A stretch of DNA of 64,000 nucleotides from Trypanosoma brucei (lineage: Eukaryota). Positions within the stretch are counted from its first letter, which is position 1. Each line of letters opens with the position of its first letter. Below the pieces are notes generated by a model, which saw only the letters and a program-made list of their open reading frames with translations, was not told the origin of the DNA and did no database searches. The stretch covers positions 32,001-96,000 of the forward strand of contig CP000070.1 of NCBI GenBank assembly GCA_000002445.1, written 5' to 3'. Position numbers and translations under genes: made by a program. Shown here piece after piece: positions 31,543-47,932 of the stretch.

Positions 31543-33971
31543 TATGGGGAAGCATAGAGGAGAATTGTTTCGATCCTCTCTTACAACAAATGTGGCAGGC
31601 AGTACATAACACCGATAGCATGGAAAACAAAACCATAGGCGTCACTCTATTTTCTCACCTTACCCCCTCCCCCCAATAACAGATGCGGCGTCAAGTGGTG
31701 AAAGTTGTCTTGCACAAACAACACAATATCGAGTAATTTGTAGCGCCTTTTTTTTTCTTGTTTAACTGTTAGTACGAGGAGAACATCATGATTGTTATTC
31801 CATTTTTTTCCTCGCGCGGCGTTGAAGGTGCTGAAAGTAAAAGTATGAAAACATTATCGAAATGAGTATAACCGCCAGGCATAGGAGCAACATCCCAAAC
31901 ACCTCAAAAATCACTACATGAGACTCCTTTTCCTTTGAAGCGCGCTCATTTCCATTAAATCCCGCATCGGTTACATTTGGAAATGAGGCCCCAACCAACA
32001 GAAAGTTATAAAATGCCAACATCCCAACACCTGTTGGTTGCGCACCGCAGCGCGAAATAGTAATTATACCAAAAATATGCTTACCTTTCCCCCCTTACGA
32101 TTCCTAATTTAAGAAACAATAATTCCCCCCTCCTCCAACCTGAGTGTGCTATTAATCAAATAAAAACAACAATAACAATAACATGAACATGAACACAATG
32201 GAGTTGGTGACTGGTTAAGTAACACTGAGCCGCGTTACAGCCAACTTCGAACATAACAATGTAACAAGAGGCGCCGTATGGAAAGTGCCGTTTGTTGTCT
32301 GAAATTACAGCCTAAGGATTGGCGCAGCACACATTACTCATATGATAATCTCACTTTTGCAATTCAGATATTGGGAAATGCAACCTTCCGCAAACCCCAT
32401 CATCACGCATTTCCATTTAAAAAGGGGTTTAAACCTGATAAAAAAAAAAAAAGAAAGCAAAGAGAAAATGTTATCCTCCTCCACCCCTGTTGTGTGGAGA
32501 CTAAAAAAGCGGACGTTACTGAAAAGCCATTGTTAGTTTCGTGACCAAACACGCATGATTAGAGAACCATTTACGCACCATTACGAACCGTCTCGCTTCA
32601 CCGTGCAACAATTAAAGCTGCAAAGATATGAAAAAAAAAAATGAGTTCCAGAATTGCATTGCCACGGCGACGCGATAATGCGATGAAAGATAAATGTCTA
32701 TAAAAAAAATATATGACCAAATCGGTATTAAAAATTTTAAAAACAGCGTACTTCATTACATAACATAACACTGCACTACAAAGCAACCCACCACCATAAT
32801 GGAGCGAATGCAAAAACACAATGCCCAGTGAAAAAAAAAACGCAAGTGGAAAGACATTCTACAACAGCGACCAAATCATGCATTAAACAAATTCCTTTCC
32901 CTCCAATAAAACTCACATTCGGTTAATTACACACCTGGCGCCCACAAGTCAAAATGTGCAATGCGCTAAAGATGTTGTGACTGCAGGATTGTACATCTCA
33001 AATAACATTCTCACAAGTATTGACTCTTCCGGCAGGTCTTCCAACTGAAGGTACGAATAATCAAACGCCGTCAACTCGCAACATTTAAAAGAAAATTATT
33101 TCTCTCCTTTCTTTCAGGGACTTTGAAATTGGAGGTTCTGCACAAATCCTCAATCCTCCGGCAGGTGTAAGCTCCACTTCATTTCAGTGGTCAGATACAT
33201 AACTAAATGAAAGTAAAGTATAACTAAACGACAGAGAGATTAAAGCAAAGGGGAAAACAAGTAACGACACTTACAAACAAGAAACAAGATAGTAAAATAA
33301 GTAAGTGGAAAGAAACTTAGGGAATCTAGAAGAAACATGCAGATGAAATAAAAAGAATATGGAGTCCCAAAACACATCACAACGATAAAAACTGAATACC
33401 CCATGACAATAAAAATGGAAACAATTGTGTGGAAGAAAACACTGACAAAATAAATAAAAATAAAATAACAATATCACTATTTGAAAAAAAAAAAGAATCA
33501 AGGGCAAAACGAGTCAGATAAAATAGCAGATGGGTATAGCCGCTATTTGAACACTTTCACAATAAATCCATCAACAAACGATGGGTAAGATGCGGTGTCT
33601 CAACAATGCAGCGTCTGCACACAGAAATCTCCAGTGTCATGTGCCCACCCGAATGTTTAAAGACGCCACACCAATAGGATAGCATTTAAAAAACAATAAT
33701 AACAGAAAAGATAAATATGTGGGAGACGTATGGTTTAAAAAAATGAGTAAAAAGACTTTTTTGTAGCACTGGTGCGGTACGTAAAAATTTAGTATACCAT
33801 TGAATTAAATAAGAATATAATAATGAAACGACCAGCGAAGAAAGCATAGGGGTGAGAAACGCCGTAAGTGGCCCCTCCCGTTGCAGTAGCGCCCTGTAAA
33901 CACGTGTTTAGCTAACGCCTAACTTCGACCTGTCGACACGGTAAGAGGATTAGGGAAACAGTTGACAGCTT

Positions 33972-35120
33972 TTAAAAATGTGCGGCAGCACTGTGAGAAA
34001 GTGCTGCAAGAAGGATCAGTAATGTGTATCCTCCTATAGATTCTGCATAGCTGCCGTCATTACCAACTTCTGCTTCCTCACCCTCATCGTCACCCAATTC
34101 CTGCACATGATCATCGTCAGAAATTTCCACTTTTCCTTCAGGATCCTTCTTCGGTACTTCCTCAACTTCCGTTCTTTCCGTCTTTTCCTTGTCCTCTGGA
34201 ACCTCCACGTTTCCTTCAGGATCCTTCTTCGGTACTTCCTCAACTTCCGTTCTTTCCGTCTTTTCCTTGTCCTCTGGAACCTCCACGTTTCCTTCAGGAT
34301 CCTTCTTCGGTACTTCCTCAACTTCCGTTCTTTCCGTCTTTTCCTTGTCCTCTGGAACCTCCACGTTTCCCTCAAATTCCTCCCTCGAAATCTCTTGAAC
34401 ATCCGCTTTTTCCGTCTCTGCCGTCCTTTCGGCTTCCTCAGCTGCCTTGTGTGCGTTGCTTTCAGCTGCCCTTGCTGCAACTCTTGCTTCGCTGGCACGC
34501 CGCACAGCAGCCTCTAATTGATCATATTCCGCCCTGAGATCAGCCATACCATCCGTCAAGATTTTGCAGATATCGCCAGTGAAGAACTCACACCCAAATT
34601 CCACAGCCTTTTTCAGCACCCAGGAGTTAACTCCTCTATTTGGGAGACTGCAGCCTCTCGCAATTCGTCTTGCAGTACTGGCGGCACTATTGTCCTCTGC
34701 AACACTTTTCAGATAATCATCAACCGGAGCGGTCTTTCCGGCTGCGAGCAGTGGGGCACGGGCCGCGTATTGCTCCACATCCGACAGGGCCGTCTTGGCG
34801 GCATTCTCCGCGCTCTCTGCTTCCTTTAGGGCAGCGCGAGCGCGTCCGACGGCCTCCTCCACCTTGGGAGTACTCGAAAAGGCATCCTCCGCTCGTCTCA
34901 CGGCATCTTGGCAACCTTCTCTCGCTTTAGAGGCATCCGAGACATTCGCTGCCGCCAACGCTTTGAGGGCCTTCACACCGAAGGGTATTCCATGCAGCGC
35001 TTCTGAAAAGAGACATGCCGCACTTACATGGCTCACTGTGTTTTGAGACCCTTCCTCAATTATGGAGTCGGCGGTGACATACGTAAGTATAGCAAGCAAG
35101 CACAAAAAACGGGCAGTCAT
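33972..35120 (-). CDS. Ala/Glu-rich predicted GPI-anchored surface protein, array copy 1 (382 aa, subtype A, three 26-aa repeats)
   Basis: N-terminal signal peptide MTARFLCLLAILTYVTADS. ~20% Ala, acidic. 5-6 conserved Cys. 3 x EGNVEVPEDKEKTERTEVEEVPKKDP. C-terminal GNDGSYAESIGGYTLLILLAALSHSAAAHF (small-residue omega region + hydrophobic tail = GPI signal). Possibly related to GARP/BARP-type alanine-rich trypanosome surface proteins; not verified. Confidence 0.8.
   Translation of the reverse strand: MTARFLCLLAILTYVTADSIIEEGSQNTVSHVSAACLFSEALHGIPFGVKALKALAAANVSDASKAREGCQDAVRRAEDAFSSTPKVEEAVGRARAALKEAESAENAAKTALSDVEQYAARAPLLAAGKTAPVDDYLKSVAEDNSAASTARRIARGCSLPNRGVNSWVLKKAVEFGCEFFTGDICKILTDGMADLRAEYDQLEAAVRRASEARVAARAAESNAHKAAEEAERTAETEKADVQEISREEFEGNVEVPEDKEKTERTEVEEVPKKDPEGNVEVPEDKEKTERTEVEEVPKKDPEGNVEVPEDKEKTERTEVEEVPKKDPEGKVEISDDDHVQELGDDEGEEAEVGNDGSYAESIGGYTLLILLAALSHSAAAHF
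34130..34365 (-). repeat. 78-bp in-frame tandem repeat (3 copies) inside surface gene copy 1
   Basis: ttccttcaggatccttcttcggtacttcctcaacttccgttctttccgtcttttccttgtcctctggaacctccacgt is repeated with period 78. Copy 2 has 2 copies (~37290-37445), copy 5 has 1, copies 3 and 4 have none. Confidence 0.85.
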
Positions 35121-35394
35121 GATTATCCCGAATTGCTGTAGTGGTAGTTGTTAAAATGAATGTTAAGTCTAAATGCAGGCAACAGTAGGAAAGAGTGGGT
35201 AAATGTTTGTATTAATAATTTCCCCCCTCGTGGAAAGCAGTTGTAACATGGGAGGAGGCATGGATGTTGTTCTTTTTGTGATTTTTAAAATTTTTTGTGT
35301 TCAATTTTCTGAGCATTGCTTTATTGGAAGAGATGACGGGACTTATTGCTTTTTCACAGTTGCCGTCGCTAACGGTAGTTGCGTTTCACTATGG

Positions 35395-36071
35395 TTATTC
35401 TTTCGACTGTCCCTGTTCAGCTATAAGTTCTCGAATGGCGATTGTGCTTCCAGATTTTATACTTGCAGTTTTTAATCGGGAGAGAACGCTTTCCAGTCGC
35501 TCGAAAGGATCATCACTAACTGCAGCCAGAATGCTTTTCAAATAACTCAAGTCGGTTACAAGTTGTTCTACTGCAAGGGCCGCAGCATCGTCGCTATTAA
35601 GTGGGAAACACATTGTAATGTTTTGTCAGGAAAGAACTGAAGAACGGCCTTTACAGCTTCCATCAGTCCATTCATAACTACTTGAAATCGATCATACTTC
35701 ATGATAGATTGCGAATCCTTTAAGAGGTCTTCCACGCGCTCTGCTTCTCGCCGTGCAAATGATTCCAGCACCTTAGGTTGCTCGAATATGTGTGCAAGCT
35801 CAGTTTGAGTATAAAAATTAATTTGCTCTGCAATATCGTCCCGCCTACACAAACTGTTTTTAACGTTTCTTCCGTCCTCAGCACCAACACATACCTTCGG
35901 AGGAGTAGAATCAATTTTAATACTAAGCTGCCTTACTGCCTCAAAGCAGGAAATAAGCTCAACATTCCTCTCCACACACTGCAAAATGGGAGTTAAGCAA
36001 GTGGAAAGACATTCTACAACAGCGATCAAATCATGCATTAAACAAACTCCTTTCCCTCCAATAAAACTCAC
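35395..36071 (-). pseudogene. Truncated 3' fragment of the 784-aa (COG7-like) gene with a ~630-bp internal deletion (array unit 1)
   Basis: ORFs 35568..36071 and 35395..35613 together reproduce the C-terminal region of the intact gene (…ECLSTCLTPILQCVERN… and …LAVEQLVTDLSYLKSILAAV…AEQGQSKE). They lack the 5' two-thirds. Deletion junction at taatg|ttttgtcagg. Confidence 0.85.
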
Positions 36072-37131
36072 ATTCGGTTAATTACACACCTGGCGCCCAC
36101 AAGTCAAAATGTGCAATGCGCTAAAGATGTTGTGACTGCAGGATTGTACATCTCAAATAATATTCTCACAAGTATTGACTCTTCCGGCAGGTCTTCCAAC
36201 TGAAGGTACGAATAATCAAACGCCGTCAACTCGCAACATTTAAAGGAAAATTATTTCTCTCCTTTCCTTCAGAGACTTTGAAATTGGAGGTTCTGCACAA
36301 ATCCTCAATCCTCCGGCAGGTGTAAGCTCCACTTCATTTCAGTGGTCAGATACATAACTAAATGAAAGTAAAGTATAACTAAACGACAGAGAGATTAAAG
36401 CAAAGGGGAAAACAAGCAACGACACTTACAAACAAGAAACAAGATAGTAAAATAAGTAAGTGGAAAGAAACTTAGGGAATCTAGAAGAAACATGCAGATG
36501 AAATAAAAAGAATATGGAGTCCCAAAACACATCGCAACGATAAAAACTGAATACCCCATGACAATAAAAATGGAAACAATTGTGTGGAGGGAAGGGTTAT
36601 AAAAGAAAAAAAATAATAATAATGTTATCGTCTTTTTTTATCAAAAAAAATAAATAAATAAAAATGAAGTGAAGCAGATAAAATAGCAGATGGGTATAGC
36701 CGCTATTTGAACACTTTCACAATAAATCCATCAACAAACGATGGGTAAGATGCGGTGTCTCGACAATGCAGCGTCTGCACACAGAAATCTACAGTGTCAT
36801 GCGCCCACCCGAATGTTTAAAGACGCCACACCAATAGGATAGCATTTAAAAAACAATAATAACAGAAAAGATAAATATGTGGGAGACGTATGGTTCAAAA
36901 AAATGAGTAAAAAGACTTTTTTGTAGCACTGGTGCGGTACGTAAAAATTTAGTATACCATTGAATTAAATAAGAATATAATAATGAAACGACCAGCGAAG
37001 AAAGCATAGGGGTGAGAAACGCCGTAAGTGGCCCCTCCCGTTGCAGTAGCGCCCTGTAAACACGTGTTTAGCTAACGCCTAACTTCGACCTGTCGACACG
37101 GTAAGAGGATTAGGGAAACAGTTGACAGCTT

Positions 37132-38202
37132 TTAAAAATGTGCGGCAGCACTGTGAAAAAGTGCTGCAAGAAGGATCAGTAATGTGTATCCTCCTATAGA
37201 TTCTGCATAGCTGCCGTCATTACCAACTTCTGCTTCCTCACCCTCATCGTCACCCAATTCCTGCACATGATCATCGTCAGAAATTTCCACTTTTCCCTCA
37301 GGATCCTTCTTCGGTACTTCCTCAACTTCCGTTCTTTCCGTCTTTTCCTTGTCCTCTGGAACCTCCACGTTTCCTTCAGGATCCTTCTTCGGCACTTCCT
37401 CAACTTCCGTTCTTCCCGTCTTTTCCTTGTCCTCTGGAACCTCCACGTTTCCCTCAAATTCCTCCCTCGAAATCTCTTGAACATCCGCTTCTTCCGTCTC
37501 TGCCGTCCTTTCGGCTTCCTCAGCTGCCTTGCGTGCGTTGCTTTCAGCTGCCCTTGCTGCAACTCTTGCTTCGCCGGCACGCCGCACAGCAGCCTCTAAT
37601 TGATCATATTCCGCCCTGAGATCAACCATACGCGTCCTCGCGATCCTACATATTTCACCCATGAAAATAGCACATGCGGATTCCACAGCCTGTGTCAGCA
37701 CCCAGGAGTTAACTCCTCTATTTGGGAGACTGCAGCCTCTCGCAATTCGTCTTGCAGTACTGGCGGCACTATTGTCCTCTGCAACACTTTTCAGATAATC
37801 ATCAATCGGAGCGGTCTTTCCGGCTGCGAGCAGTGGGGCACGGGCCGCGTATTGCTCCACATCCGACAGGGCCGTCTTGGCGGCATTCTCCGCGCTCTCT
37901 GCTTCCTTTAGGGCAGCGCGAGCGCGTCCGACGGCCTCCTCCGCTTTGGGATTATTCCAAGAGGCATCCTCCGCTCGTCTCACGGCATCTTGGCAACCTT
38001 CTCTCGCTTTAGAGGCATCCGAGACATTCGCTGCCGCCAACGCTTTGAGGGCCTTCACACCGAAGGGTATTCCATGCAGCGCTTCTGAAAAGAGACATGC
38101 CGCACTTACATGACTCACTGTGTTTTGAGACCCTTCCTCAATTATGGAGTCGGCGGTGACATACGTAAGTATAGCAAGCAAGCACAAAAAACGGGCAGTC
38201 AT
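37132..38202 (-). CDS. Ala/Glu-rich predicted GPI-anchored surface protein, array copy 2 (356 aa, subtype A, two 26-aa repeats)
   Basis: Same signal peptide and GPI signal as copy 1. Differs from copy 1 in the central segment (VLTQAVESACAIFMGEICRIARTRMVDL vs VLKKAVEFGCEFFTGDICKILTDGMADL). Confidence 0.8.
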   Translation of the reverse strand: MTARFLCLLAILTYVTADSIIEEGSQNTVSHVSAACLFSEALHGIPFGVKALKALAAANVSDASKAREGCQDAVRRAEDASWNNPKAEEAVGRARAALKEAESAENAAKTALSDVEQYAARAPLLAAGKTAPIDDYLKSVAEDNSAASTARRIARGCSLPNRGVNSWVLTQAVESACAIFMGEICRIARTRMVDLRAEYDQLEAAVRRAGEARVAARAAESNARKAAEEAERTAETEEADVQEISREEFEGNVEVPEDKEKTGRTEVEEVPKKDPEGNVEVPEDKEKTERTEVEEVPKKDPEGKVEISDDDHVQELGDDEGEEAEVGNDGSYAESIGGYTLLILLAALFHSAAAHF

Positions 38203-38476
38203 GATTATCCCGAGTTGCTGTAGTGGTAGTTGTTAAAATGAATGTTAAGTCTAAATGCAGGCAACAGTAGGAAAGAGTGGGTAAATGTTTGTATTAATAA
38301 TTTCCCCCCTCGTGGAAAGCAGTTGTAACATGGGAGGAGGCATGGATGTTGTTCTTTTTGTGATTTTTAAAATTTTTTGTGTTAAATTTTCTGAGCATTG
38401 CTTTATTGGAAGAGATGACGGGACTTATTGCTTTTTCACAGTTGCCGTCGCTAACGGTAGTTGCGTTTCACTATGG

Positions 38477-39775
38477 TTATTCTTTCGACTGTCCCTGTTC
38501 AGCTATAAGTTCTCGAATGGCGATTGTGCTTCCAGATTTTATACTTGCAGTTTTTAATCGGGAGAGAACGCTTTCCAGTCGCTCGAAAGGATCATCACTA
38601 ACTGCAGCCAGAATGCTTTTCAAATAACTCAAGTCGGTTACAAGTTGTTCTACTGCAAGGGCCGCAGCATCGTCGCTATTAAGTGGGAAACACATTATAA
38701 TGTTGGCCACTTTAGACTCAATAAAGTCCGATACCGCCGTGCGCACAATATCATCTAACCAATATTCCGTTACTTCTTCGAGTAACTCTTCAATGCCGTC
38801 GAACCGTCCCTCGCTGCCACCCCGTAATGATTCGAGTGCTAATGGTATTTCCACAATGGCTTCACCAAAGCCGCGCACCATTTCACTAGGCGCAAGATGT
38901 AATGGCGTGTGTAGCACAGAATTGGAAATCACAGCGCTTCCTCCGTTACTCGACTGTAACCTCCAGAGTGGTTGCGACTCATAACCGTCAGCTGTGGCAA
39001 TAACGGGAGCAATGACAGTTTGTTTTATAGCCTGCTGGCATTCAGCAGCACAAATCACCAGTACATTGTTTAGTGGCCGCCACAGCTGTTCACTTAGTTG
39101 ACTATTGATAGACTCAACCTCAGTTGGACGTAGTCGGCGCACCTCCGCAGATTTGACATAGTCTTCGCACATTTTCTGCGTAGACAGAAGCAATTGTTGA
39201 ACAATTTTGCGTAACGCTGAAAGGCGCTCTAACAACTCCGTCTGGTGCGTGTGAGGTGCGGGTTGAAAAAATGTCAGCGACTGGACGAGTGCCACCTTCC
39301 ATCGGCTCACACAGATCGGTAATGTTTTGTCAGGAAAGAACTGAAGAACGGCCTTTACAGCTTCCATCAGTCCATTCATAACTACTTGAAATCGATCATA
39401 CTTCATGATAGATTGCGAATCCTTTAAGAGGTCTTCCACGCGCTCTGCTTCTCGCCGTGCAAATGATTCCAGCACCTTAGGTTGCTCGAATATGTGTGCA
39501 AGCTCAGTTTGAGTATAAAAATTAATTTGCTCTGCAATATCGTCCCGCCTACACAAACTGTTTTTAACGTTTCTTCCGTCCTCAGCACCAACACATACCT
39601 TCGGAGGAGTAGAATCAATTTTAATACTAAGCTGCCTTACTGCCTCAAAGCAGGAAATAAGCTCAACATTCCTCTCCACACACTGCAAAATGGGAGTTAA
39701 GCAAGTGGAAAGACATTCTACAACAGCGACCAAATCATGCATTAAACAAATTCCTTTCCCTCCAATAAAACTCAC
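38477..39775 (-). pseudogene. Truncated 3' fragment (C-terminal 432 codons, undeleted) of the 784-aa gene (array unit 2)
   Basis: Translation is collinear and near-identical to residues ~353-784 of ORF 47933..50287. It begins abruptly at the unit junction. No upstream part of the gene is present. Confidence 0.85.
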
Positions 39776-40834
39776 ATTCGGTTAATTACACACCTGGCGC
39801 CCACAAGTCAAAATGTGCAATGCGCTAAAGATGTTGTGACTGCAGGATTGTACATCTCAAATAATATTCTCACAAGTATTGACTCTTCCGGCAGGTTTTC
39901 CAACTGAAGGTACGAATAATCAAACGCCGTCAACTCGCAACATTTAAAAGAAAATTATTTCTCTCCTTTCTTTCAGGGACTTTGAAATTGGAGGTTCTGC
40001 ACAAATCCTCAATCCTCCGGCAGGTGTAAGCTCCACTTCATTTCAGTGGTCAGATACATAACTAAATGAAAGTAAAGTATAACTAAACGACAGAGAGATT
40101 AAAGCAAAGGGGAAAACAAGCAACGACACTTACAAACAAGAAACAAGATAGTAAAATAAGTAAGTGGAAAGAAACTTAGGGAATCTAGAAGAAACATGCA
40201 GATGAAATAAAAAGAATATGGAGTCCCAAAACACATCGCAACGATAAAAACTGAATACCCCATGACAATAAAAATGGAAACAATTGTGTGGAGGGAAGGG
40301 TTATAAAAGAAAAAAAATAATAATAATGTTATCGTCTTTTTTTATCAAAAAAAATAAATAAATAAAAATGAAGTGAAGCAGATAAAATAGCAGATGGGTA
40401 TAGCCGCTATTTGAACACTTTCACAATAAATCCATCAACAAACGATGGGTAAGATGCGGTGTCTCAACAATGCAGCGTCTGCACACAGAAATCTCCAGTG
40501 TCATGTGCCCACCCGAATGTTTAAAGACGCCACACCAATAGGATAGCATTTAAAAAACAATAATAACAGAAAAGATAAATATGTGGGAGACGTATGGTTT
40601 AAAAAAATGAGTAAAAAGACTTTTTTGTAGCACTGGTGCGGTACGTAAAAATTTAGTATACCATTGAATTAAATAAGAATATAATAATGAAACGACCAGC
40701 GAAGAAAGCATAGGGGTGAGAAACGCCGTAAGTGGCCCCTCCCGTTGCAGTAGCGCCCTGTAACACGTGTTTAGCTAACGCCTAACTTCGACCTGTCGAC
40801 ACGGTAAGAGGATTAGGGAAACAGTTGACAGCTT

Positions 40835-41746
40835 TTAAAAATGTGCGGCAGCACTGTGAAAAAGTGCTGCAAGAAGGATCAGTAATGTGTATCCTCCTAT
40901 AGATTCTGCATAGCTGCCGTCATTACCAACTTCTGCTTCCTCACCCTCATCGTCACCCAATTCCTGCACATGATCATCGTCAGAAATTTCCACTTTTCCT
41001 TCAGGATCCTTCTTCGGCACTTCCTTAACTTTCGCTTTTTCCGTCTCTGCCGTCCTTTCGGCTTCCTCAGCTGCCTTGTGTGCGTTGCTTTCAGCTGCCC
41101 TTGCTGCAACTCTTGCTTCGCTGGCACGCCGCACAGCAGCCTCTAATTGATCATATTCCGCCCTGAGATCAGCCATACGCGCCCTCGCAGTGTTGCAGAT
41201 AACTGTCATGAAAACGGCACAACCGGATTCCACAGCCTGTGTCAGTACCCAGGAACTAACTTCAAGTGGGGCATTGCAGTCTCTCGCAATTCGTCTTGCA
41301 GTACTGGCGGCACTATTGTCCTCTGCAACACTTTTCAGATAATCATCAACCAGAGCTACATTGTTGTTCGCGAGCGCTGAGGCATTGGCAGCGTATTGCT
41401 CCACATCCGACAGGGCCGTCTTGGCGGCATTCTCCGCGCTCTCTGCTTCCTTTAGGGCAGCGCGAGCGCGTCCGACGGCCTCCTCCACCTTGGGAGTACT
41501 CGAAAAGGCATCCTCCGCTCGTCTCACGGCATCTTGGCAACCTTCTCTCGCTTTAGAGGCATCCGAGACATTCGCTGCCGCCGACGTCTTGAACACTTTG
41601 ACACTGTTGGGTACTCCATGCAGCGCTTCCGACATGAGACATGCCGCACTTACATGACTCACTGTGTCTTGAAACCCTTCCCCACCTTTGGGACCGGTGG
41701 TGACATACATAAGTATAGCAAGCAAGCACAAAAAACGGGCAGTCAT
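40835..41746 (-). CDS. Ala/Glu-rich predicted GPI-anchored surface protein, array copy 3 (303 aa, subtype B, no 26-aa repeat)
   Basis: Shares signal peptide, Cys positions, central Ala-rich helical region and GPI signal. Divergent N-terminal third (TTGPKGGEGFQDTVSHVSAACLMSEALHGVPNSVKVFKTSAAANV…ANASALANNNVALVDDY…). Confidence 0.8.
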   Translation of the reverse strand: MTARFLCLLAILMYVTTGPKGGEGFQDTVSHVSAACLMSEALHGVPNSVKVFKTSAAANVSDASKAREGCQDAVRRAEDAFSSTPKVEEAVGRARAALKEAESAENAAKTALSDVEQYAANASALANNNVALVDDYLKSVAEDNSAASTARRIARDCNAPLEVSSWVLTQAVESGCAVFMTVICNTARARMADLRAEYDQLEAAVRRASEARVAARAAESNAHKAAEEAERTAETEKAKVKEVPKKDPEGKVEISDDDHVQELGDDEGEEAEVGNDGSYAESIGGYTLLILLAALFHSAAAHF

Positions 41747-42020
41747 GATTATCCCGAATTGCTGTAGTGGTAGTTGTTAAAATGAATGTTAAGTCTAAAT
41801 GCAGGCAACAGTAGGAAAGAGTGGGTAAATGTTTGTATTAATAATTTCCCCCCTCGTGGAAAGCAGTTGTAACATGGGAGGAGGCATGGATGTTGTTCTT
41901 TTTGTGATTTTTAAAATTTTTTGTGTTCAATTTTCTGAGCATTGCTTTATTGGAAGAGATGACGGGACTTATTGCTTTTTCACAGTTGCCGTCGCTAACG
42001 GTAGTTGCGTTTCACTATGG

Positions 42021-42693
42021 TTATTCTTTCGACTGTCCCTGTTCAGCTATAAGTTCTCGAATGGCGATTGTGCTTCCAGATTTTATACTTGCACTTTTTA
42101 ATCGGGAGAGAACGCTTTCCAGTCGCTCGAAAGGATCATCACTAACTGCAGCCAGAATGCTTTTCAAATAACTCAAGTCGGTTACAAAATGACAGCGACT
42201 GGACGAGTGCCACCTTCCATCGGCTCACACAGATCGGTAATGTTTTGTCAGGAAAGAACTGAAGAACGGCCTTTACAGCTTCCATCAGTCCATTCATAAC
42301 TACTTGAAATCGATCATACTTCATGATAGATTGCGAATCCTTTAAGAGGTCTTCCACGCGCTCTGCTTCTCGCCGTGCAAATGATTTCAGCACCTTAGGT
42401 TGCTCGAATATGTGTGCAAGCTCAGTTTGAGTATAAAAATTAATTTGCTCTGCAATATCGTCCCGCCTACACAAACTGTTTTTAACGTTTCTTCCGTCCT
42501 CAGCACCAACACATACCTTCGGAGGAGTAGAATCAATTTTAATACTAAGCTGCCTTACTGCCTCAAAGCAGGAAATAAGCTCAACATTCCTCTCCACACA
42601 CTGCAAAATGGGAGTTAAGCAAGTGGAAAGACATTCTACAACAGCGACCAAATCATGCATTAAACAAATTCCTTTCCCTCCAATAAAACTCAC
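42021..42693 (-). pseudogene. Truncated 3' fragment of the 784-aa gene with a ~630-bp internal deletion and frameshift (array unit 3)
   Basis: ORF 42142..42693 matches the intact gene over …ECLSTCLTPILQ…KVALVQSL, then goes out of frame at the deletion junction gttacaa|aatgacagcgactgg. The extreme 3' end through the ancestral stop position (42021) is retained. Confidence 0.85.
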
Positions 42694-43753
42694 ATTCGGT
42701 TAATTACACACCTGGCGCCCACAAGTCAAAATGTGCAATGCGCTAAAGATGTTGTGACTGCAGGATTGTACATCTCAAATAATATTCTCACAAGTATTGA
42801 CTCTTCCGGCAGGTCTTCCAACTGAAGGTACGAATAATCAAACGCCGTCAACTCGCAACATTTAAAAGAAAATTATTTCTCTCCTTTCTTTCAGGGACTT
42901 TGAAATTGGAGGTTCTGCACAAATCCTCAATCCTCCGGCAGGTGTAAGCTCCACTTCATTTCAGTGGTCAGATACATAACTAAATGAAAGTAAAGTATAA
43001 CTAAACGACAGAGAGATTAAAGCAAAGGGGAAAACAAGCAACGACACTTACAAACAAGAAACAAGATAGTAAAATAAGTAAGTGGAAAGAAACTTAGGGA
43101 ATCTAGAAGAAACATGCAGATGAAATAAAAAGAATATGGAGTCCCAAAACACATCGCAACGATAAAAACTGAATACCCCATGACAATAAAAATGGAAACA
43201 ATTGTGTGGAGGGAAGGGTTATAAAAGAAAAAAAATAATAATAATGTTATCGTCTTTTTTTATCAAAAAAAATAAATAAATAAAAATGAAGTGAAGCAGA
43301 TAAAATAGCAGATGGGTATAGCCGCTATTTGAACACTTTCACAATAAATCCATCAACAAACGATGGGTAAGATGCGGTGTCTCAACAATGCAGCGTCTGC
43401 ACACAGAAATCTCCAGTGTCATGTGCCCACCCGAATGTTTAAAGACGCCACACCAATAGGATAGCATTTAAAAAACAATAATAACAGAAAAGATAAATAT
43501 GTGGGAGACGTATGGTTTAAAAAAATGAGTAAAAAGACTTTTTTGTAGCACTGGTGCGGTACGTAAAAATTTAGTATACCATTGAATTAAATAAGAATAT
43601 AATAATGAAACGACCAGCGAAGAAAGCATAGGGGTGAGAAACGCCGTAAGTGGCCCCTCCCGTTGCAGTAGCGCCCTGTAAACACGTGTTTAGCTAACGC
43701 CTAACTTCGACCTGTCGACACGGTAAGAGGATTAGGGAAACAGTTGACAGCTT

Positions 43754-44665
43754 TTAAAAATGTGCGGCAGCACTGTGAGAAAGTGCTGCAAGAAGGATCA
43801 GTAATGTGTATCCTCCTATAGATTCTGCATAGCTGCCGTCATTACCAACTTCTGCTTCCTCACCCTCATCGTCACCCAATTCCTGCACATGATCATCGTC
43901 AGAAATTTCCACTTTTCCTTCAGGATCCTTCTTCGGCACTTCCTTAACTTTCGCTTTTTCCGTCTCTGCCGTCCTTTCGGCTTCCTCAGCTGCCTTGTGT
44001 GCGTTGCTTTCAGCTGCCCTTGCTGCAACTCTTGCTTCGCTGGCACGCCGCACAGCAGCCTCTAATTGATCATATTCCGCCCTGAGATCAGCCATACGCG
44101 TCCTCGCAGTGTTGCAGATAACTGTCATGAAAACGGCACAACCGGATTCCACAGCCTGTGTCAGTACCCAGGAACTAACTTCAAGTGGGGCATTGCAGTC
44201 TCTCGCAATTCGTCTTGCAGTACTGGCGGCACTATTGTCCTCTGCAACACTTTTCAGATAATCATCAACCAGAGCTACATTGTTGTTCGCGAGCGCTGAG
44301 GCATTGGCAGCGTATTGCTCCACATCCGACAGGGCCGTCTTGGCGGCATTCTCCGCGCTCTCTGCTTCCTTTAGGGCAGCGCGAGCGCGTCCGACGGCCT
44401 CCTCCACCTTGGGAGTACTCGAAAAGGCATCCTCCGCTCGTCTCACGGCATCTTGGCAACCTTCTCTCGCTTTAGAGGCATCCAAGACATTCGCTGCCGC
44501 CGACGTCTTGAACACTTTGACACTGTTGGGTACTCCATGCAGCGCTTCCGACATGAGACATGCCGCACTTACATGACTCACTGTGTCTTGAAACCCTTCC
44601 CCACCTTTGGGACCGGTGGTGACATACGTAAGTATAGCAAGCAAGCACAAAAAACGGGCAGTCAT
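43754..44665 (-). CDS. Ala/Glu-rich predicted GPI-anchored surface protein, array copy 4 (303 aa, subtype B; 4 aa differences from copy 3)
   Basis: Near-identical to copy 3. Differences: ILT/ILM, NVL/NVS, ART/ARA, LSH/LFH. Confidence 0.8.
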   Translation of the reverse strand: MTARFLCLLAILTYVTTGPKGGEGFQDTVSHVSAACLMSEALHGVPNSVKVFKTSAAANVLDASKAREGCQDAVRRAEDAFSSTPKVEEAVGRARAALKEAESAENAAKTALSDVEQYAANASALANNNVALVDDYLKSVAEDNSAASTARRIARDCNAPLEVSSWVLTQAVESGCAVFMTVICNTARTRMADLRAEYDQLEAAVRRASEARVAARAAESNAHKAAEEAERTAETEKAKVKEVPKKDPEGKVEISDDDHVQELGDDEGEEAEVGNDGSYAESIGGYTLLILLAALSHSAAAHF

Positions 44666-44939
44666 GATTATCCCGAATTGCTGTAGTGGTAGTTGTTAAA
44701 ATGAATGTTAAGTCTAAATGCAGGCAACAGTAGGAAAGAGTGGGTAAATGTTTGTATTAATAATTTCCCCCCTCGTGGAAAGCAGTTGTAACATGGGAGG
44801 AGGCATGGATGTTGTTCTTTTTGTGATTTTTAAAATTTTTTGTGTTCAATTTTCTGAGCATTGCTTTATTGGAAGAGATGACGGGACTTATTGCTTTTTC
44901 ACAGTTGCCGTCGCTAACGGTAGTTGCGTTTCACTATGG

Positions 44940-45612
44940 TTATTCTTTCGACTGTCCCTGTTCAGCTATAAGTTCTCGAATGGCGATTGTGCTTCCAGAT
45001 TTTATACTTGCAGTTTTTAATCGGGAGAGAACGCTTTCCAGTCGCTCGAAAGGATCATCACTAACTGCAGCCAGAATGCTTTTCAAATAACTCAAGTCGG
45101 TTACAAAATGACAGCGACTGGACGAGTGCCACCTTCCATCGGCTCACACAGATCGGTAATGTTTTGTCAGGAAAGAACTGAAGAACGGCCTTTACAGCTT
45201 CCATCAGTCCATTCATAACTACTTGAAATCGATCATACTTCATGATAGATTGCGAATCCTTTAAGAGGTCTTCCACGCGCTCTGCTTCTCGCCGTGCAAA
45301 TGATTCCAGCACCTTAGGTTGCTCGAATATGTGTGCAAGCTCAGTTTGAGTATAAAAATTAATTTGCTCTGCAATATCGTCCCGCCTACACAAACTGTTT
45401 TTAACGTTTCTTCCGTCCTCAGCACCAACACATACCTTCGGAGGAGTAGAATCAATTTTAATACTAAGCTGCCTTACTGCCTCAAAGCAGGAAATAAGCT
45501 CAACATTCCTCTCCACACACTGCAAAATGGGAGTTAAGCAAGTGGAAAGACATTCTACAACAGCGACCAAATCATGCATTAAACAAATTCCTTTCCCTCC
45601 AATAAAACTCAC
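44940..45612 (-). pseudogene. Truncated 3' fragment of the 784-aa gene with the same ~630-bp deletion as unit 3 (array unit 4)
   Basis: Same junction gttacaa|aatgacagcgactgg as unit 3. ORF 45061..45612. Confidence 0.85.
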
Positions 45613-46665
45613 ATTCGGTTAATTACACACCTGGCGCCCACAAGTCAAAATGTGCAATGCGCTAAAGATGTTGTGACTGCAGGATTGTACATCTCAAATA
45701 ATATTCTCACAAGTATTGACTCTTCCGGCAGGTTTTCCAACTGAAGGTACGAATAATCAAACGCCGTCAACTCGCAACATTTAAAAGAAAATTATTTCTC
45801 TCCTTTCTTTCAGGGACTTTGAAATTGGAGGTTCTGCACAAATCCTCAATCCTCCGGCAGGTGTAAGCTCCACTTCATTTCAGTGGTCAGATACATAACT
45901 AAATGAAAGTAAAGTATAACTAAACGACAGAGAGATTAAAGCAAAGGGGAAAACAAGCAACGACACTTACAAACAAGAAACAAGATAGTAAAATAAGTAA
46001 GTGGAAAGAAACTTAGGGAATCTAGAAGAAACATGCAGATGAAATAAAAAGAATATGGAGTCCCAAAACACATCGCAACGATAAAAACTGAATACCCCAT
46101 GACAATAAAAATGGAAACAATTGTGTGGAAGAAAACACTGACAAAATAAATAAAAATAAAATAACAATATCACTATTTGAAAAAAAAAAGAATCAAGGGC
46201 AAAACGAGTCAGATAAAATAGCAGATGGGTATAGCCGCTATTTGAACACTTTCACAATAAATCCATCAACAAACGATGGGTAAGATGCGGTGTCTCGACA
46301 ATGCAGCGTCTGCACACAGAAATCTACAGTGTCATGCGCCCACCCGAATGTTTAAAGACGCCACACCAATAGGATAGCATTTAAAAAACAATAATAACAG
46401 AAAAGATAAATATGTGGGAGACGTATGGTTCAAAAAATGAGTAAAAAGACTTTTTTGTAGCACTGGTGCGGTACGTAAAAATTTAGTATACCATTGAATT
46501 AAATAAGAATATAATAATGAAACGACCAGCGAAGAAAGCATAGGGGTGAGAAACGCCGTAAGTGGCCCCTCCCGTTGCAGTAGCGCCCTGTAAACACGTG
46601 TTTAGCTAACGCCTAACTTCGACCTGTCGACACGGTAAGAGGATTAGGGAAACAGTTGACAGCTT

Positions 46666-47658
46666 TTAAAAATGTGCGGCAGCACTGTGAAAAAGTGCTG
46701 CAAGAAGGATCAGTAATGTGTATCCTCCTATAGATTCTGCATAGCTGCCGTCATTACCAACTTCTGCTTCCTCACCCTCATCGTCACCCAATTCCTGCAC
46801 ATGATCATCGTCAGAAATTTCCACTTTTCCTTCAGGATCCTTCTTCGGCACTTCCTCAACTTCCGTTCTTCCCGTCTTTTCCTTGTCCTCTGGAACCTCC
46901 ACGTTTCCCTCAAATTCCTCCCTCGAAATCTCTTGAACATCCGCTTCTTCCGTCTCTGCCGTCCTTTCGGCTTCCTCAGCTGCCTTGCGTGCGTTGCTTT
47001 CAGCTGCCCTTGCTGCAACTCTTGCTTCGCTGGCACGCCGCACAGCAGCCTCTAATTGATCATATTCCGCCCTGAGATCAACCATACGCGTCCTCGCGAT
47101 CCTACATATTTCACCCATGAAAATAGCACATGCGGATTCCACAGCCTGTGTCAGCACCCAGGAGTTAACTCCTCTATTTGGGAGACTGCAGCCTCTCGCA
47201 ATTCGTCTTGCAGTACTGGCGGCACTATTGTCCTCTGCAACACTTTTCAGATAATCATCAATCGGAGCGGTCTTTCCGGCTGCGAGCAGTGGGGCACGGG
47301 CCGCGTATTGCTCCACATCCGACAGGGCCGTCTTGGCGGCATTCTCCGCGCTCTCTGCTTCCTTTAGGGCAGCGCGAGCGCGTCCGACGGCCTCCTCCAC
47401 CTTGGGAGTACTCGAAAAGGCATCCTCCGCTCGTCTCACGGCATCTTGGCAACCTTCTCTCGCTTTAGAGGCATCCGAGACATTCGCTGCCGCCGACGCT
47501 TTGAGGGCCTTCACACCGAAGGGTATTCCATGCAGCGCTTCTGAAAAGAGACATGCCGCACTTACATGACTCACTGTGTTTTGAGACCCTTCCTCAATTA
47601 TGGAGTCGGCGGTGACATACGTAAGTATAGCAAGCAAGCACAAAAAACGGGCAGTCAT
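46666..47658 (-). CDS. Ala/Glu-rich predicted GPI-anchored surface protein, array copy 5 (330 aa, subtype A, one 26-aa repeat). Sits immediately downstream of the intact 784-aa gene.
   Basis: Same signal peptide and GPI signal. Essentially copy 2 with one fewer 78-bp repeat. Confidence 0.8.
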   Translation of the reverse strand: MTARFLCLLAILTYVTADSIIEEGSQNTVSHVSAACLFSEALHGIPFGVKALKASAAANVSDASKAREGCQDAVRRAEDAFSSTPKVEEAVGRARAALKEAESAENAAKTALSDVEQYAARAPLLAAGKTAPIDDYLKSVAEDNSAASTARRIARGCSLPNRGVNSWVLTQAVESACAIFMGEICRIARTRMVDLRAEYDQLEAAVRRASEARVAARAAESNARKAAEEAERTAETEEADVQEISREEFEGNVEVPEDKEKTGRTEVEEVPKKDPEGKVEISDDDHVQELGDDEGEEAEVGNDGSYAESIGGYTLLILLAALFHSAAAHF

Positions 47659-47932
47659 GATTATCCCGAATTGCTGTAGTGGTAGTTGTTAAAATGAATG
47701 TTAAGTCTAAATGCAGGCAACAGTAGGAAAGAGTGGGTAAATGTTTGTATTAATAATTTCCCCCCTCGTGGAAAGCAGTTGTAACATGGGAGGAGGCATG
47801 GATGTTGTTCTTTTTGTGATTTTTAAAATTTTTTGTGTTCAATTTTCTGAGCATTGCTTTATTGGAAGAGATGACGGGACTTATTGCTTTTTCACAGTTG
47901 CCGTCGCTAACGGTAGTTGCGTTTCACTATGG

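What the first reader, a model, noticed from the sequence alone, without database searches (positions are those of the whole stretch)
33972..47658. Two gene subtypes plus mosaic segments and mosaic spacers: signs of gene conversion within the array
Copies 3 and 4 (subtype B) have a different N-terminal third from copies 1, 2 and 5 (subtype A), but an identical signal peptide, central helices and GPI signal. Copy 1 differs from copies 2 and 5 only in a central ~30-aa patch around two Cys residues. The ~1.1 kb downstream spacers exist in two variants (X at ~33430 and ~46127; Y at ~36600, ~40300 and ~43210). The spacer variants do not follow the gene subtype: copies 1 and 5 carry X, while copies 2, 3 and 4 carry Y. 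This patchwork points to segmental gene conversion or recombination between units rather than simple serial duplication. That mode of evolution is expected for exposed surface antigens.
Basis: seen in the sequence. Interest (0 to 1): 0.55.

Follow-up and report, generated by a model that had tools for sequence, protein, structure and literature searches.

The report
Recombining MISP surface-gene array, T. brucei
This is the known five-gene MISP surface-protein array of Trypanosoma brucei; its copies are kept almost identical by recombination except for a few short, very divergent blocks that are shuffled between copies, and recombination in this array was already reported in 2010.

Summary
The window is T. 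b. brucei TREU927 chromosome 7, and the five genes are MISP360/380/400/420/440 (Fam50 subfamily iv), with the published MISP-A and MISP-B subtypes.

- **Repeat unit.** Each unit is 2.9-3.7 kb and holds a copy of the 3' part of the neighbouring COG7 gene, a MISP gene and a 1.1 kb spacer.
- **Divergence.** Outside six short islands, all unit pairs are 99.1-99.8% identical, with no synonymous differences in the protein core. Inside the islands there are 2-3 haplotypes. The four head islands (P1, P3-P5) are 72-75% identical between subtypes, with dS about 0.29. The non-coding X/Y island is 60% identical.
- **Shuffling.** Island haplotypes are shared with T. b. gambiense and T. b. equiperdum. They occur in 7 combinations among 12 units, and several island pairs show all four gametes. 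A PHI-type permutation test gave 0 of 2000.
- **Location.** Four coding islands lie in or next to the membrane-distal cap of the helical bundle.

Serial duplication alone is excluded. Recombination between units is supported, most likely short-tract gene conversion on a background of concerted evolution.

Jackson et al. 2010 (Table 2) already list this array with PHI p<0.001 and 4 GARD breakpoints, so novelty is low. The new details are the X/Y island, the COG7 origin of the interspersed "unrelated" ORFs, and a truncated COG7 in the T. b. equiperdum assembly.

The parts
32842..49179 (-). Whole tandem array: five units plus a terminal 23-bp remnant. Units on the + strand are U1 32865-36019, U2 36020-39723, U3 39724-42641, U4 42642-45560 and U5 45561-49179.
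   Evidence: Self-BLAST, unit alignments, and the 23-mer that marks every unit start and the array end.
33972..35120 (-). MISP360 (copy 1, 382 aa). Type A at islands P1-P4, Cys-patch haplotype beta, 3 repeats, X spacer.
   Evidence: About 98% identical to PDB 5VTL (Lister 427 MISP360), which has the same beta patch.
37132..38202 (-). MISP380 (copy 2, 356 aa). Type A, own P2' patch (SWNNPKA, 37943-37961), Cys-patch haplotype alpha, 2 repeats, Y spacer.
   Evidence: It is 99.45% identical to unit 5 over 2360 bp, and 6 of the 13 differences lie in the 19-bp P2' patch.
40835..41746 (-). MISP400 (copy 3, 303 aa). Type B, Cys-patch haplotype gamma, no repeat, Y spacer.
43754..44665 (-). MISP420 (copy 4, 303 aa). 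Type B, Cys-patch haplotype gamma, no repeat, Y spacer.
46666..47658 (-). MISP440 (copy 5, 330 aa). Type A, Cys-patch haplotype alpha, 1 repeat, X spacer. 100% identical to a TREU927 protein.
47492..47621 (-). Island P1 (codons about 13-57) in unit 5. Equivalent positions: 34954-35083, 38036-38165, 41580-41709 and 44499-44628.
   Evidence: Two haplotypes, A and B.
47262..47302 (-). Island P3 (codons 119-133) in unit 5. Equivalent positions: 34724-34764, 37806-37846, 41350-41390 and 44269-44309.
47081..47192 (-). Islands P4 (47155-47192) and P5, the Cys patch (47081-47150), in unit 5. Equivalent positions: 34543-34654, 37625-37736, 41172-41280 and 44091-44199.
   Evidence: P5 has three haplotypes: alpha, beta and gamma.
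46128..46211 (-). Non-coding island, X form, about 455-540 nt downstream of the stop codon. The other X copy is at 33432-33516.
43209..43298 (-). Non-coding island, Y form. Identical copies lie at 40291-40380 and 36587-36676. It is 60% identical to X.
34126..34417 (-). 78-bp (26-aa) tandem repeats of copy 1. Copy 2 has them at 37286-37499, copy 5 has a single unit at about 46874-46951, and copies 3 and 4 have none.
47933..50287 (-). Full-length COG7 gene. The annotated start is probably the ATG at 50245 (770 aa). Its 3' part from 49179 is the first part of unit 5.
   Evidence: Pfam COG7 match and orthologues across Trypanosoma.
38479..39723 (-). Undeleted COG7 3' fragment in unit 2, carrying the ORF 38477-39775. 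From its position this should be Tb927.7.390; the gene numbers were assigned by order, not checked against a record.
   Evidence: 417 of 426 aa identical to COG7.
42023..42641 (-). COG7 fragment in unit 3 with the 626-bp deletion del-2. The same fragment is in unit 4 at 44942-45560.
35397..36019 (-). COG7 fragment in unit 1 with a different, overlapping 622-bp deletion, del-1.
32842..32864 (-). Terminal 23-mer TTGTAGAATGTCTTTCCACTTGC. It is identical to the first 23 bases of every unit, including the true COG7 copy at 49157-49179.
   Evidence: 6 exact matches against 0 expected.

Best explanation
**What it is.** This is a five-unit tandem array of MISP genes. MISP proteins are GPI-anchored triple-helix-bundle proteins on the surface of the salivary-gland and metacyclic stages.

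**Origin.** The array arose from one founding duplication of a segment holding the 3' part of COG7, a MISP gene and a spacer. All junctions are identical, and a 23-bp remnant sits at the array end.

**Homogenisation.** Homologous recombination between units has since kept them almost identical. This covers the non-functional COG7 fragments and the spacers as well as the genes. The processes would be unequal crossing-over and gene conversion.

**Islands.** Six short islands of 19-130 bp escape homogenisation and persist as 2-3 old, strongly diverged haplotypes. They are older than the split of the T. brucei subspecies. They are moved between units by short recombination tracts whose ends lie in the conserved sequence between islands, and sometimes inside an island. 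The result is genes that combine different head segments, repeat numbers and 3' islands.

**Structure.** Four coding islands lie in or next to the membrane-distal cap of the protein, around its apical pocket. One lies in the membrane-proximal helix I-II turn. One is a non-coding T-rich block downstream of the gene.

**Shown here:** the mosaic, the incompatibility of site patterns, the dS contrast, the sharing of haplotypes across subspecies, and strain-specific variants shared by units of different type.

**Inferred:** that the tracts are gene conversion rather than paired crossovers, and that islands persist because strong heterology limits conversion across them and/or because head diversity is selected.
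For: - **Identity.** 100% match to a TREU927 protein on a 2.2 Mb contig, Pfam GARP domain, and the MISP paper.
- **Unit structure.**
- **Background versus islands.** Background identity is 99.1-99.8% for all ten unit pairs. The head islands are 72-75% identical between A and B, and X/Y is 60% identical.
- **Synonymous contrast.** Islands have dS 0.288 and dN 0.275. The core has dS 0 over about 100 synonymous sites and dN 0.016. Fisher p=5e-8.
- **Recombination tests.** PHI-type permutation on the 5 units: observed 0.077, permuted 0.127, 0 of 2000. On 11 units: observed 0.28, permuted 0.57, 0 of 2000.
- **Haplotype table.** 12 units from three genomes give 7 combinations. All four gametes occur for P1/P2, P1/P3-P4, P4/P5 sites and head/XY.
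- **Short internal replacement.** The 19-bp P2' patch sits in a unit that is otherwise 99.45% identical to unit 5. The same patch occurs in a gambiense unit with a B-type P1.
- **Concerted evolution.** Some variants are private to one genome but shared by units of different type. Examples are alignment columns 288, 1423 and 2783 in both gambiense units, 3396 in four equiperdum units (Ea-Ed), and 1884-1885 in all three TREU927 A-type units.
- **Independent confirmation of one mosaic.** The 5VTL sequence, cloned from Lister 427, has the beta Cys patch. It also has B-like V50 and N120.
- **Structure mapping.** Variable residues number 32 of 90 in the cap and 18 of 121 in the stalk, p=6e-4. Helix boundaries come from PMC10089363.
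- **Published tests on this array.** PHI p<0.001 and 4 GARD breakpoints (PMC2854126).
Against: - Only 12 units from three assemblies were compared.
- The gambiense array (2 units) may be collapsed.
- The equiperdum PacBio assembly carries 1-bp indels that look like errors.
- Gene conversion cannot be formally separated from repeated unequal crossovers.
- Island dN/dS is about 1 overall (0.4-2.4 per island on small counts), so diversifying selection is not demonstrated.
- The T. congolense outgroup does not polarise A versus B: 9 sites against 8.
- No rate or direction of exchange was measured.
Confidence: 0.85

Rival explanations
1. Simple serial duplication followed by independent point-mutation divergence. 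Local positive selection or relaxed constraint would make the head patches evolve fast, with no exchange between units.
For: Differences concentrate in the exposed cap of a surface protein. Island dN/dS is about 1, and P3 and P4 are above 1.
Against: Synonymous divergence is 0.29 in the islands against 0 in the core, which selection on protein sequence cannot cause. A non-coding island shows the same behaviour at 60% identity. Blocks of 17-33 linked sites give incompatible splits and all four gametes. Non-functional COG7 fragments are about 99.5% identical to the live gene.
Confidence: 0.02
2. Assembly artefact: the mosaic units are chimeras made when near-identical 3-kb repeats, or the two haplotypes of a diploid, were assembled.
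For: The gambiense assembly has only 2 units. The equiperdum assembly has homopolymer indels. Tandem repeats with about 99.5% background identity are hard to assemble.
Against: The same island haplotypes and the same unit junction recur in three assemblies made with different technologies. The copy-1 mosaic was cloned independently from Lister 427 for crystallography. The MISP paper reports resolving four repeat-length classes by RT-PCR. Within TREU927 the key discordance is unit 2, which is alpha with Y. It involves a block 90 bp long that is identical to two other units.
Confidence: 0.05
3. Ectopic import: the divergent islands were copied into a young, nearly identical array from diverged donors elsewhere, rather than being old array haplotypes that escaped homogenisation. 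Possible donors are another Fam50 locus, a pseudogene, or introgression from another lineage.
For: Island boundaries are sharp and island dN is about equal to dS, as expected for sequence copied from a drifting donor. From my own knowledge, not checked here, ectopic conversion occurs in T. brucei.
Against: A protein search of 5.8 billion sequences with MISP440 returned only array members from three genomes. X and Y are absent from the rest of the 64-kb window. Islands are co-linear, in frame and clearly homologous between types. The same haplotypes are shared by three subspecies.
Confidence: 0.08

Closest known systems
T. brucei tandem gene arrays with subspecies-specific sequence mosaics (Jackson 2007, PMC1855330; Jackson et al. 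2010, PMC2854126), for example the ISG65 array on chromosome 2
   Same: Tandem duplicates evolve in concert yet carry recombinant mosaics. This very array is row '50bi, Tb927.7.360' of Table 2 in the 2010 paper: 5 Tbb and 2 Tbg copies, PHI p<0.001, 4 GARD breakpoints.
   Different: The published entry is one table row over 1170 sites. That length is close to the 1149-bp longest CDS, so it probably covers little beyond coding sequence. In the text read here there was no description of the islands, the non-coding X/Y island, the COG7 fragment inside the unit, or the link to the protein structure.
MISP family (Casas-Sanchez et al. 2023, PMC10089363); Fam50 subfamily iv (Jackson et al. 2013, PMC3605285)
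   Same: These are the same five genes. The MISP-A and MISP-B subfamilies, the 26-residue repeats, and the clustering of non-conserved residues near the apical pocket are all published.
   Different: That paper calls the interspersed ORFs 'unrelated genes' and states >99.7% conservation of UTR and intergenic sequence. It contains no occurrence of 'gene conversion', and its uses of 'recombination' concern VSG genes. Here the ORFs are COG7 fragments. X/Y is 60% identical between the two groups of units. An equiperdum unit combines a B-type head with one repeat.
Segmental gene conversion in programmed antigenic variation (T. brucei VSG mosaics, Anaplasma msp2, Borrelia vlsE, Neisseria pilE/pilS; recalled from knowledge)
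   Same: Short variable cassettes flanked by conserved sequence are re-assorted by homologous recombination in a gene for an exposed surface protein.
   Different: There is no expression site and no silent donors. All five copies are complete genes in one transcription unit. Exchange is seen on an evolutionary scale, between subspecies, not within an infection. There are 2-3 haplotypes per island rather than a large archive.

Membership tests
MISP / Fam50 subfamily iv (GARP/BARP-like trypanosome surface proteins) | GARP-type N-terminal helical-bundle domain | tested here: met
   Pfam PF16731, E=6e-51 for copy 1 and 1e-44 for copy 3. PDB 5VTL (MISP360) matches residues 26-234 with 4 substitutions.
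MISP / Fam50 subfamily iv (GARP/BARP-like trypanosome surface proteins) | Identity with Tb927.7.360-440 of TREU927 chromosome 7, five tandem paralogues | tested here: met
   Copy 5 is 100% identical to a TREU927 protein on a 2,205,233-bp contig. The lengths 382/356/303/303/330 aa and repeat numbers 3/2/0/0/1 fit the published description. Individual gene numbers were assigned by order and by the published 382-aa length of MISP360.
MISP / Fam50 subfamily iv (GARP/BARP-like trypanosome surface proteins) | N-terminal signal peptide and C-terminal GPI-anchor signal | not tested
   Hydrophobic N- and C-termini are visible in the translations. The prediction itself is taken from PMC10089363; no predictor was run here.
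Concerted evolution with recombinant mosaics in a tandem array | Significant phylogenetic incompatibility between neighbouring sites | tested here: met
   PHI-type permutation gave 0 of 2000 for 5, 9 and 11 units. Published PHI p<0.001.
Concerted evolution with recombinant mosaics in a tandem array | Paralogues within a genome share variants that are absent from their counterparts in other genomes | tested here: met
   About 17 sites are private to one genome but shared by at least 2 units, often of different type. Counts are small because the subspecies differ by less than 1%.
Concerted evolution with recombinant mosaics in a tandem array | Non-reciprocal transfer (gene conversion) as opposed to reciprocal unequal crossover | tested here: inconclusive
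   Short internal replacements argue for conversion. These are the 19-bp P2' patch inside a unit-5-like unit, and the B-type head inside the equiperdum first unit, which keeps its repeat and X island. Reciprocal products cannot be observed in genome assemblies.
Programmed antigenic-variation cassette system (expression site plus silent donors) | Silent, truncated donor cassettes feeding one expressed copy | tested here: not met
   All five copies are complete ORFs with a start codon, signal sequence and GPI signal. The paper reports transcripts of four size classes.
Programmed antigenic-variation cassette system (expression site plus silent donors) | High-frequency switching during infection | not testable with these tools
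   This needs longitudinal sequencing of parasite populations.

The most novel reading that the evidence does not exclude
The islands may be functional cassettes rather than leftovers of incomplete homogenisation. On this reading, T. brucei strains carry different combinations of cap segments, stalk length (0-3 repeats) and a non-coding X/Y processing element. The so-called invariant MISP coat would then be combinatorially polymorphic between strains. The X/Y island is overlooked in the published '>99.7% conserved' statement, and it could contribute to the unexplained isoform-specific expression.
Probability: 0.15. Interest if true: 0.5.

Novelty: already known. Interest (0 to 1): 0.3.

Why it matters

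- **Vaccine design.** The membrane-distal cap is re-assorted between paralogues and differs in combination between subspecies. This tempers the label 'invariant' and is relevant to choosing antigens.
- **Model for concerted evolution.** The array shows homogenisation and preserved diversity side by side within 3 kb.
- **Collateral damage.** Array recombination may reach a neighbouring housekeeping gene: COG7 carries a fragment-type deletion in the T. b. equiperdum assembly.

The central inference, recombination in this array, is already published. The value here is added detail, not discovery.

Tried and rejected
1. **X as an inversion of Y.** Rejected: global alignment score is 22 forward against -26 for the reverse complement.
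2. **Distal spacer as diverged COG7 upstream sequence**, which would move the unit boundary. No similarity beyond the 23-mer was found.
3. **Structured RNA or snoRNA genes in the spacer.** No Rfam family reached its gathering score in the whole window.
4. **Polarising A versus B with the T. congolense orthologue.** Uninformative: 9 sites match A, 8 match B and 24 match neither.
5. **Exact-sequence look-ups of window COG7 and MISP360.** They returned nothing. The equiperdum locus was reached through a homology search instead.
6. **Jackson 2007.** Its main text and supplements do not name this array. The 2010 paper does.
7. **X or Y elsewhere in the window as a possible donor.** Only 18-19 bp T-rich chance matches were found.
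8. **Frameshifts in two equiperdum copies as pseudogenisation.** Two of these 1-bp deletions lie in G or T runs and two do not. Together they look like long-read assembly errors, so no conclusion was drawn.


Full report
**Identity of the region**

The window is Trypanosoma brucei brucei TREU927 chromosome 7. The 330-aa product of 46666-47658 is 100% identical to a TREU927 protein on a 2,205,233-bp contig.

They are the five MISP paralogues Tb927.7.360, 380, 400, 420 and 440 described by Casas-Sanchez et al. 2023 (PMC10089363). The same genes are Fam50 subfamily iv of Jackson et al. 2013 (PMC3605285). That 2023 paper already defines MISP-A (1-3 copies of a 26-residue repeat) and MISP-B (no repeat). 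PDB 5VTL, which is MISP360 of strain Lister 427, matches copy 1 over residues 26-234 with four substitutions.

**Anatomy of the array**

Self-comparison and alignment show five head-to-tail units of 3155, 3704, 2918, 2919 and 3619 bp. Read on the minus strand, each unit holds three parts:
- a copy of the 3' part of the upstream COG7 gene, starting at the position equivalent to 49179
- the 275-bp COG7-MISP intergenic region and a MISP gene
- a spacer of about 1.1 kb

The 23-mer TTGTAGAATGTCTTTCCACTTGC marks the first bases of every unit and occurs once more at the very end of the array, at 32842-32864. That is six exact matches against none expected. All four internal junctions are the same, so there was a single founding duplication.

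The ORFs between the MISP genes are described in the 2023 paper as 'unrelated genes encoding hypothetical proteins'. From their positions they should be Tb927.7.370, 390, 410 and 430. They are in fact COG7 C-terminal copies: 417 of 426 aligned residues are identical for the unit-2 ORF.
- Unit 2 keeps the fragment intact.
- Units 3 and 4 share a 626-bp deletion (del-2).
- Unit 1 has a different, overlapping 622-bp deletion (del-1). Each fragment keeps sequence that the other lacks, so the two deletions are independent events.

In T. congolense a single MISP orthologue (35% identity, GARP domain) follows COG7 directly. In T. theileri no such gene follows COG7. The COG7-MISP arrangement is therefore shared with T. 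congolense, which fits the array being a later expansion in the T. brucei lineage. The T. congolense contig is only 5.2 kb, so a second copy there cannot be excluded.

**Check of the observation**

The variable-site map of the five units shows differences that are extremely clustered. The variance/mean of differences in 50-bp windows is 9.7-12, and at most 2.3 in 2000 permutations. Outside six islands, all ten unit pairs are 99.1-99.8% identical, whatever their subtype.

| Island | Codons or position | Size | Haplotypes |
|---|---|---|---|
| P1 | codons about 13-57 | 130 bp | A, B |
| P2 | codons 81-87 | 19 bp | standard, P2' (unit 2 only in TREU927) |
| P3 | codons 119-133 | 41 bp | A, B |
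| P4 | codons 155-167 | 35-38 bp | A, B |
| P5 (Cys patch) | codons 168-194 | 70 bp | alpha, beta, gamma |
| X/Y | about 455-540 nt after the stop codon | 84-90 bp, T-rich, non-coding | X, Y |

Taken together, the four head islands (P1, P3, P4, P5) are 72-75% identical between A and B. X and Y are 60% identical, with sharp boundaries.

The wording needs these corrections:
- The A/B difference lies in four islands, not in the N-terminal third.
- The spacer 'variants' are a 90-bp island, not the whole 1.1 kb.
- Copy 1 differs from copies 2 and 5 by more than the Cys patch.
- The signal peptide and GPI signal are almost, not strictly, identical.

**Tests for recombination**

Within TREU927, about 12 sites group {2,5} against {1,3,4}, running from the Cys patch through the 3' CDS to the proximal spacer. 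The 33 X/Y sites group {1,5} against {2,3,4}. These two splits are incompatible. Four single sites add further conflicts.

A PHI-type statistic is the mean four-gamete incompatibility of neighbouring informative sites, tested against permuted site order.

| Data set | Observed | Permuted mean | Permutations at or below observed |
|---|---|---|---|
| 5 TREU927 units | 0.077 | 0.127 | 0 of 2000 |
| 11 units | 0.28 | 0.57 | 0 of 2000 |

I fetched the orthologous arrays of T. b. gambiense DAL972 and T. b. equiperdum OVI. The gambiense array has 2 units, G2 and G1. The equiperdum array has 5 units, E0 and Ea to Ed. They have the same junction, the same del-2 and the same island haplotypes.

| Units | P1 | P2 | P3 | P4 | P5 | Spacer |
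|---|---|---|---|---|---|---|
| T5 | A | std | A | A | alpha | X |
| T2 | A | P2' | A | A | alpha | Y |
| T1 | A | std | A | A | beta | X |
| T3, T4, G1, Ea, Eb, Ec | B | std | B | B | gamma | Y |
| G2 | B | P2' | A-like | A | alpha | X |
| E0 | B | std | B | B | gamma | X |
| Ed | A | std | B | B | beta | X |

That is seven combinations in twelve units. All four gametes occur for P1/P2, P1/P3-P4, P4/beta-specific sites and head/XY. This implies at least three recombination events in non-overlapping intervals.

The Lister 427 MISP360 sequence was cloned independently for crystallography. It has the beta patch together with B-like V50 and N120, so exchange tracts can also end inside islands.

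**Why this is not divergence plus selection**

| Region | dS | dN |
|---|---|---|
| Islands | 0.288 | 0.275 |
| Rest of the N-terminal domain | 0 (0 of about 100 synonymous sites) | 0.016 |

(. Fisher p=5e-8 for the synonymous counts.)

Every island has high pS (0.13-0.48). Per-island pN/pS ranges from 0.4 to 2.4 on small counts.

The islands therefore have a much deeper coalescence than their surroundings. Positive selection on protein sequence cannot produce that, and it cannot explain the non-coding X/Y island at all.

Island haplotypes are shared across subspecies: 82 sites in the N-terminal domain region and 32 in X/Y. The few background variants are often private to one genome yet shared by units of different type. 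Examples are three sites in both gambiense units, one in four equiperdum units (Ea-Ed), and a 2-nt change in all three TREU927 A-type units. That is the signature of concerted evolution.

**Most likely mechanism**

Homologous recombination between misaligned or paired units keeps the whole unit homogeneous. This includes the COG7 pseudo-fragments, which are about 99.5% identical to the live gene. The islands persist as old haplotypes and are moved between units by short tracts.

Two cases look like non-reciprocal internal replacement, meaning gene conversion:
- The 19-bp P2' patch lies inside unit 2, which is otherwise 99.45% identical to unit 5 over 2360 bp. Six of the 13 differences fall in that patch.
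- The equiperdum first unit has a B-type head between true upstream COG7 sequence and the 'first-unit' single repeat and X island.

Conversion versus paired crossovers cannot be settled from assemblies.

Why the islands persist is inferred, not shown. Heterology of 25-40% should limit recombination across them. From my own knowledge, mismatch repair suppresses recombination between diverged sequences in T. brucei. Selection may also favour diversity in the head of the protein.

I mapped the variation with the helix boundaries, bends and disulphides published for 5VTL. Variable residues are enriched in the membrane-distal cap: 32 of 90 against 18 of 121 in the stalk, p=6e-4. Most 'stalk' exceptions lie next to the bends or form the P2 turn. 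This agrees with the paper's remark that 51% of non-conserved residues lie near the apical pocket.

**Rival explanations**

- **Serial duplication with local fast evolution** is refuted by the dS contrast and the four-gamete violations.
- **Assembly chimeras** are unlikely. Three assemblies made with different technologies, plus an independently cloned gene, show the same haplotypes in different combinations. Individual units could still be affected: the gambiense array may be collapsed, and the equiperdum assembly has homopolymer indels.
- **Import from an ectopic donor** cannot be excluded with these tools. However, a search of 5.8 billion proteins returned only array members, and X and Y are absent from the rest of the window.

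**Comparison with the literature, and novelty**

Jackson et al. 2010 (PMC2854126) list this very array in their Table 2 of tandem arrays (row '50bi, Hypothetical protein, Tb927.7.360'). It is recorded with 5 Tbb and 2 Tbg copies, PHI observed 0.126 against mean 0.210 (p<0.001), 1 LRT breakpoint and 4 GARD breakpoints over 1170 sites. The A/B subtypes and the 26-residue repeats are also published. The finding is therefore real but already known in substance.

I did not find the following in the papers read:
- the non-coding X/Y island. It contradicts the statement that UTR and intergenic sequences are >99.7% conserved, which was made when noting that isoform-specific expression is unexplained.
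- the COG7 origin of the interspersed ORFs
- the island-versus-core synonymous contrast
- an equiperdum isoform with a B-type head and one repeat
- the full-length COG7 of the equiperdum assembly carrying del-2, which gives 521 aa instead of 770. This would be collateral damage from array recombination if it is not a misassembly.

**Verdict**

The phenomenon is an ordinary, well-documented mode of evolution for T. brucei tandem arrays, and it has been reported for this array. Interest is modest, at 0.3.

Noticed in passing
window 35397-36019, 38479-39723, 42023-42641, 44942-45560 (ORFs 35568-36071, 38477-39775, 42142-42693, 45061-45612): The ORFs between the MISP genes are called 'unrelated genes encoding hypothetical proteins' in PMC10089363. 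By position they should be Tb927.7.370, 390, 410 and 430. They are copies of the C-terminal part of the adjacent COG7 gene and belong to the repeat unit.
   Followed up: yes
window 35560-35620 (unit 1) versus 42186-42238 and 45105-45157 (units 3 and 4): There are two independent, overlapping deletions of almost the same size in the COG7 fragments. One is 622 bp, with an AACATTA microhomology at the junction. The other is 626 bp. Unit 2 is undeleted. It is unexplained why two separate events removed nearly the same segment.
   Followed up: partly
L003 9959-11687 (T. b. equiperdum OVI, CM010678.1): In this assembly the full-length COG7 gene itself carries the 626-bp fragment-type deletion, and is called as 521 aa instead of 770. 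This could reflect array recombination reaching the housekeeping gene, or a repeat collapse in the assembly.
   Followed up: partly
window 33432-33516, 36587-36676, 40291-40380, 43209-43298, 46128-46211: The X/Y T-rich island lies about 455-540 nt after each MISP stop codon and is only 60% identical between forms. PMC10089363 states >99.7% conservation of UTR and intergenic sequence and leaves isoform-specific expression unexplained. The island is a candidate cis-element, perhaps a polypyrimidine tract for trans-splicing and polyadenylation, but X/Y does not obviously track the reported expression classes.
   Followed up: partly
L003 11962-12951 and L002 1174-2163 (units E0 and Ea): T. b. equiperdum has two identical 329-aa MISP genes with a B-type head and one 26-residue repeat. 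This breaks the published rule that MISP-B lacks repeats.
   Followed up: yes
L001 about 10985-11014 (gambiense unit G2); L002 units Eb and Ec: G2 has a 1-bp deletion in a T run just before the stop codon, which extends the protein by 7 residues to 337 aa. Eb and Ec carry several 1-bp deletions: one in a G run is shared by both, one in a T run is in Eb only, and two lie outside homopolymer runs. They may be assembly errors rather than real frameshifts.
   Followed up: partly
L004 10-4141 (T. congolense IL3000 contig CAEQ01002665.1): COG7 is followed directly by a single MISP orthologue of 453 aa, with 35% identity, a GARP domain and its own acidic repeats. The COG7-MISP synteny therefore predates the T. 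brucei array. T. theileri (L005) has no such gene after COG7.
   Followed up: yes
window about 23600-25550: Long ORFs run on the + strand up to about 23.6 kb and on the - strand from about 25.5 kb onward. The MISP array therefore lies near the downstream end of a transcription unit, about 8-24 kb from a convergent strand-switch region. No RNA family reached threshold anywhere in the window.
   Followed up: no
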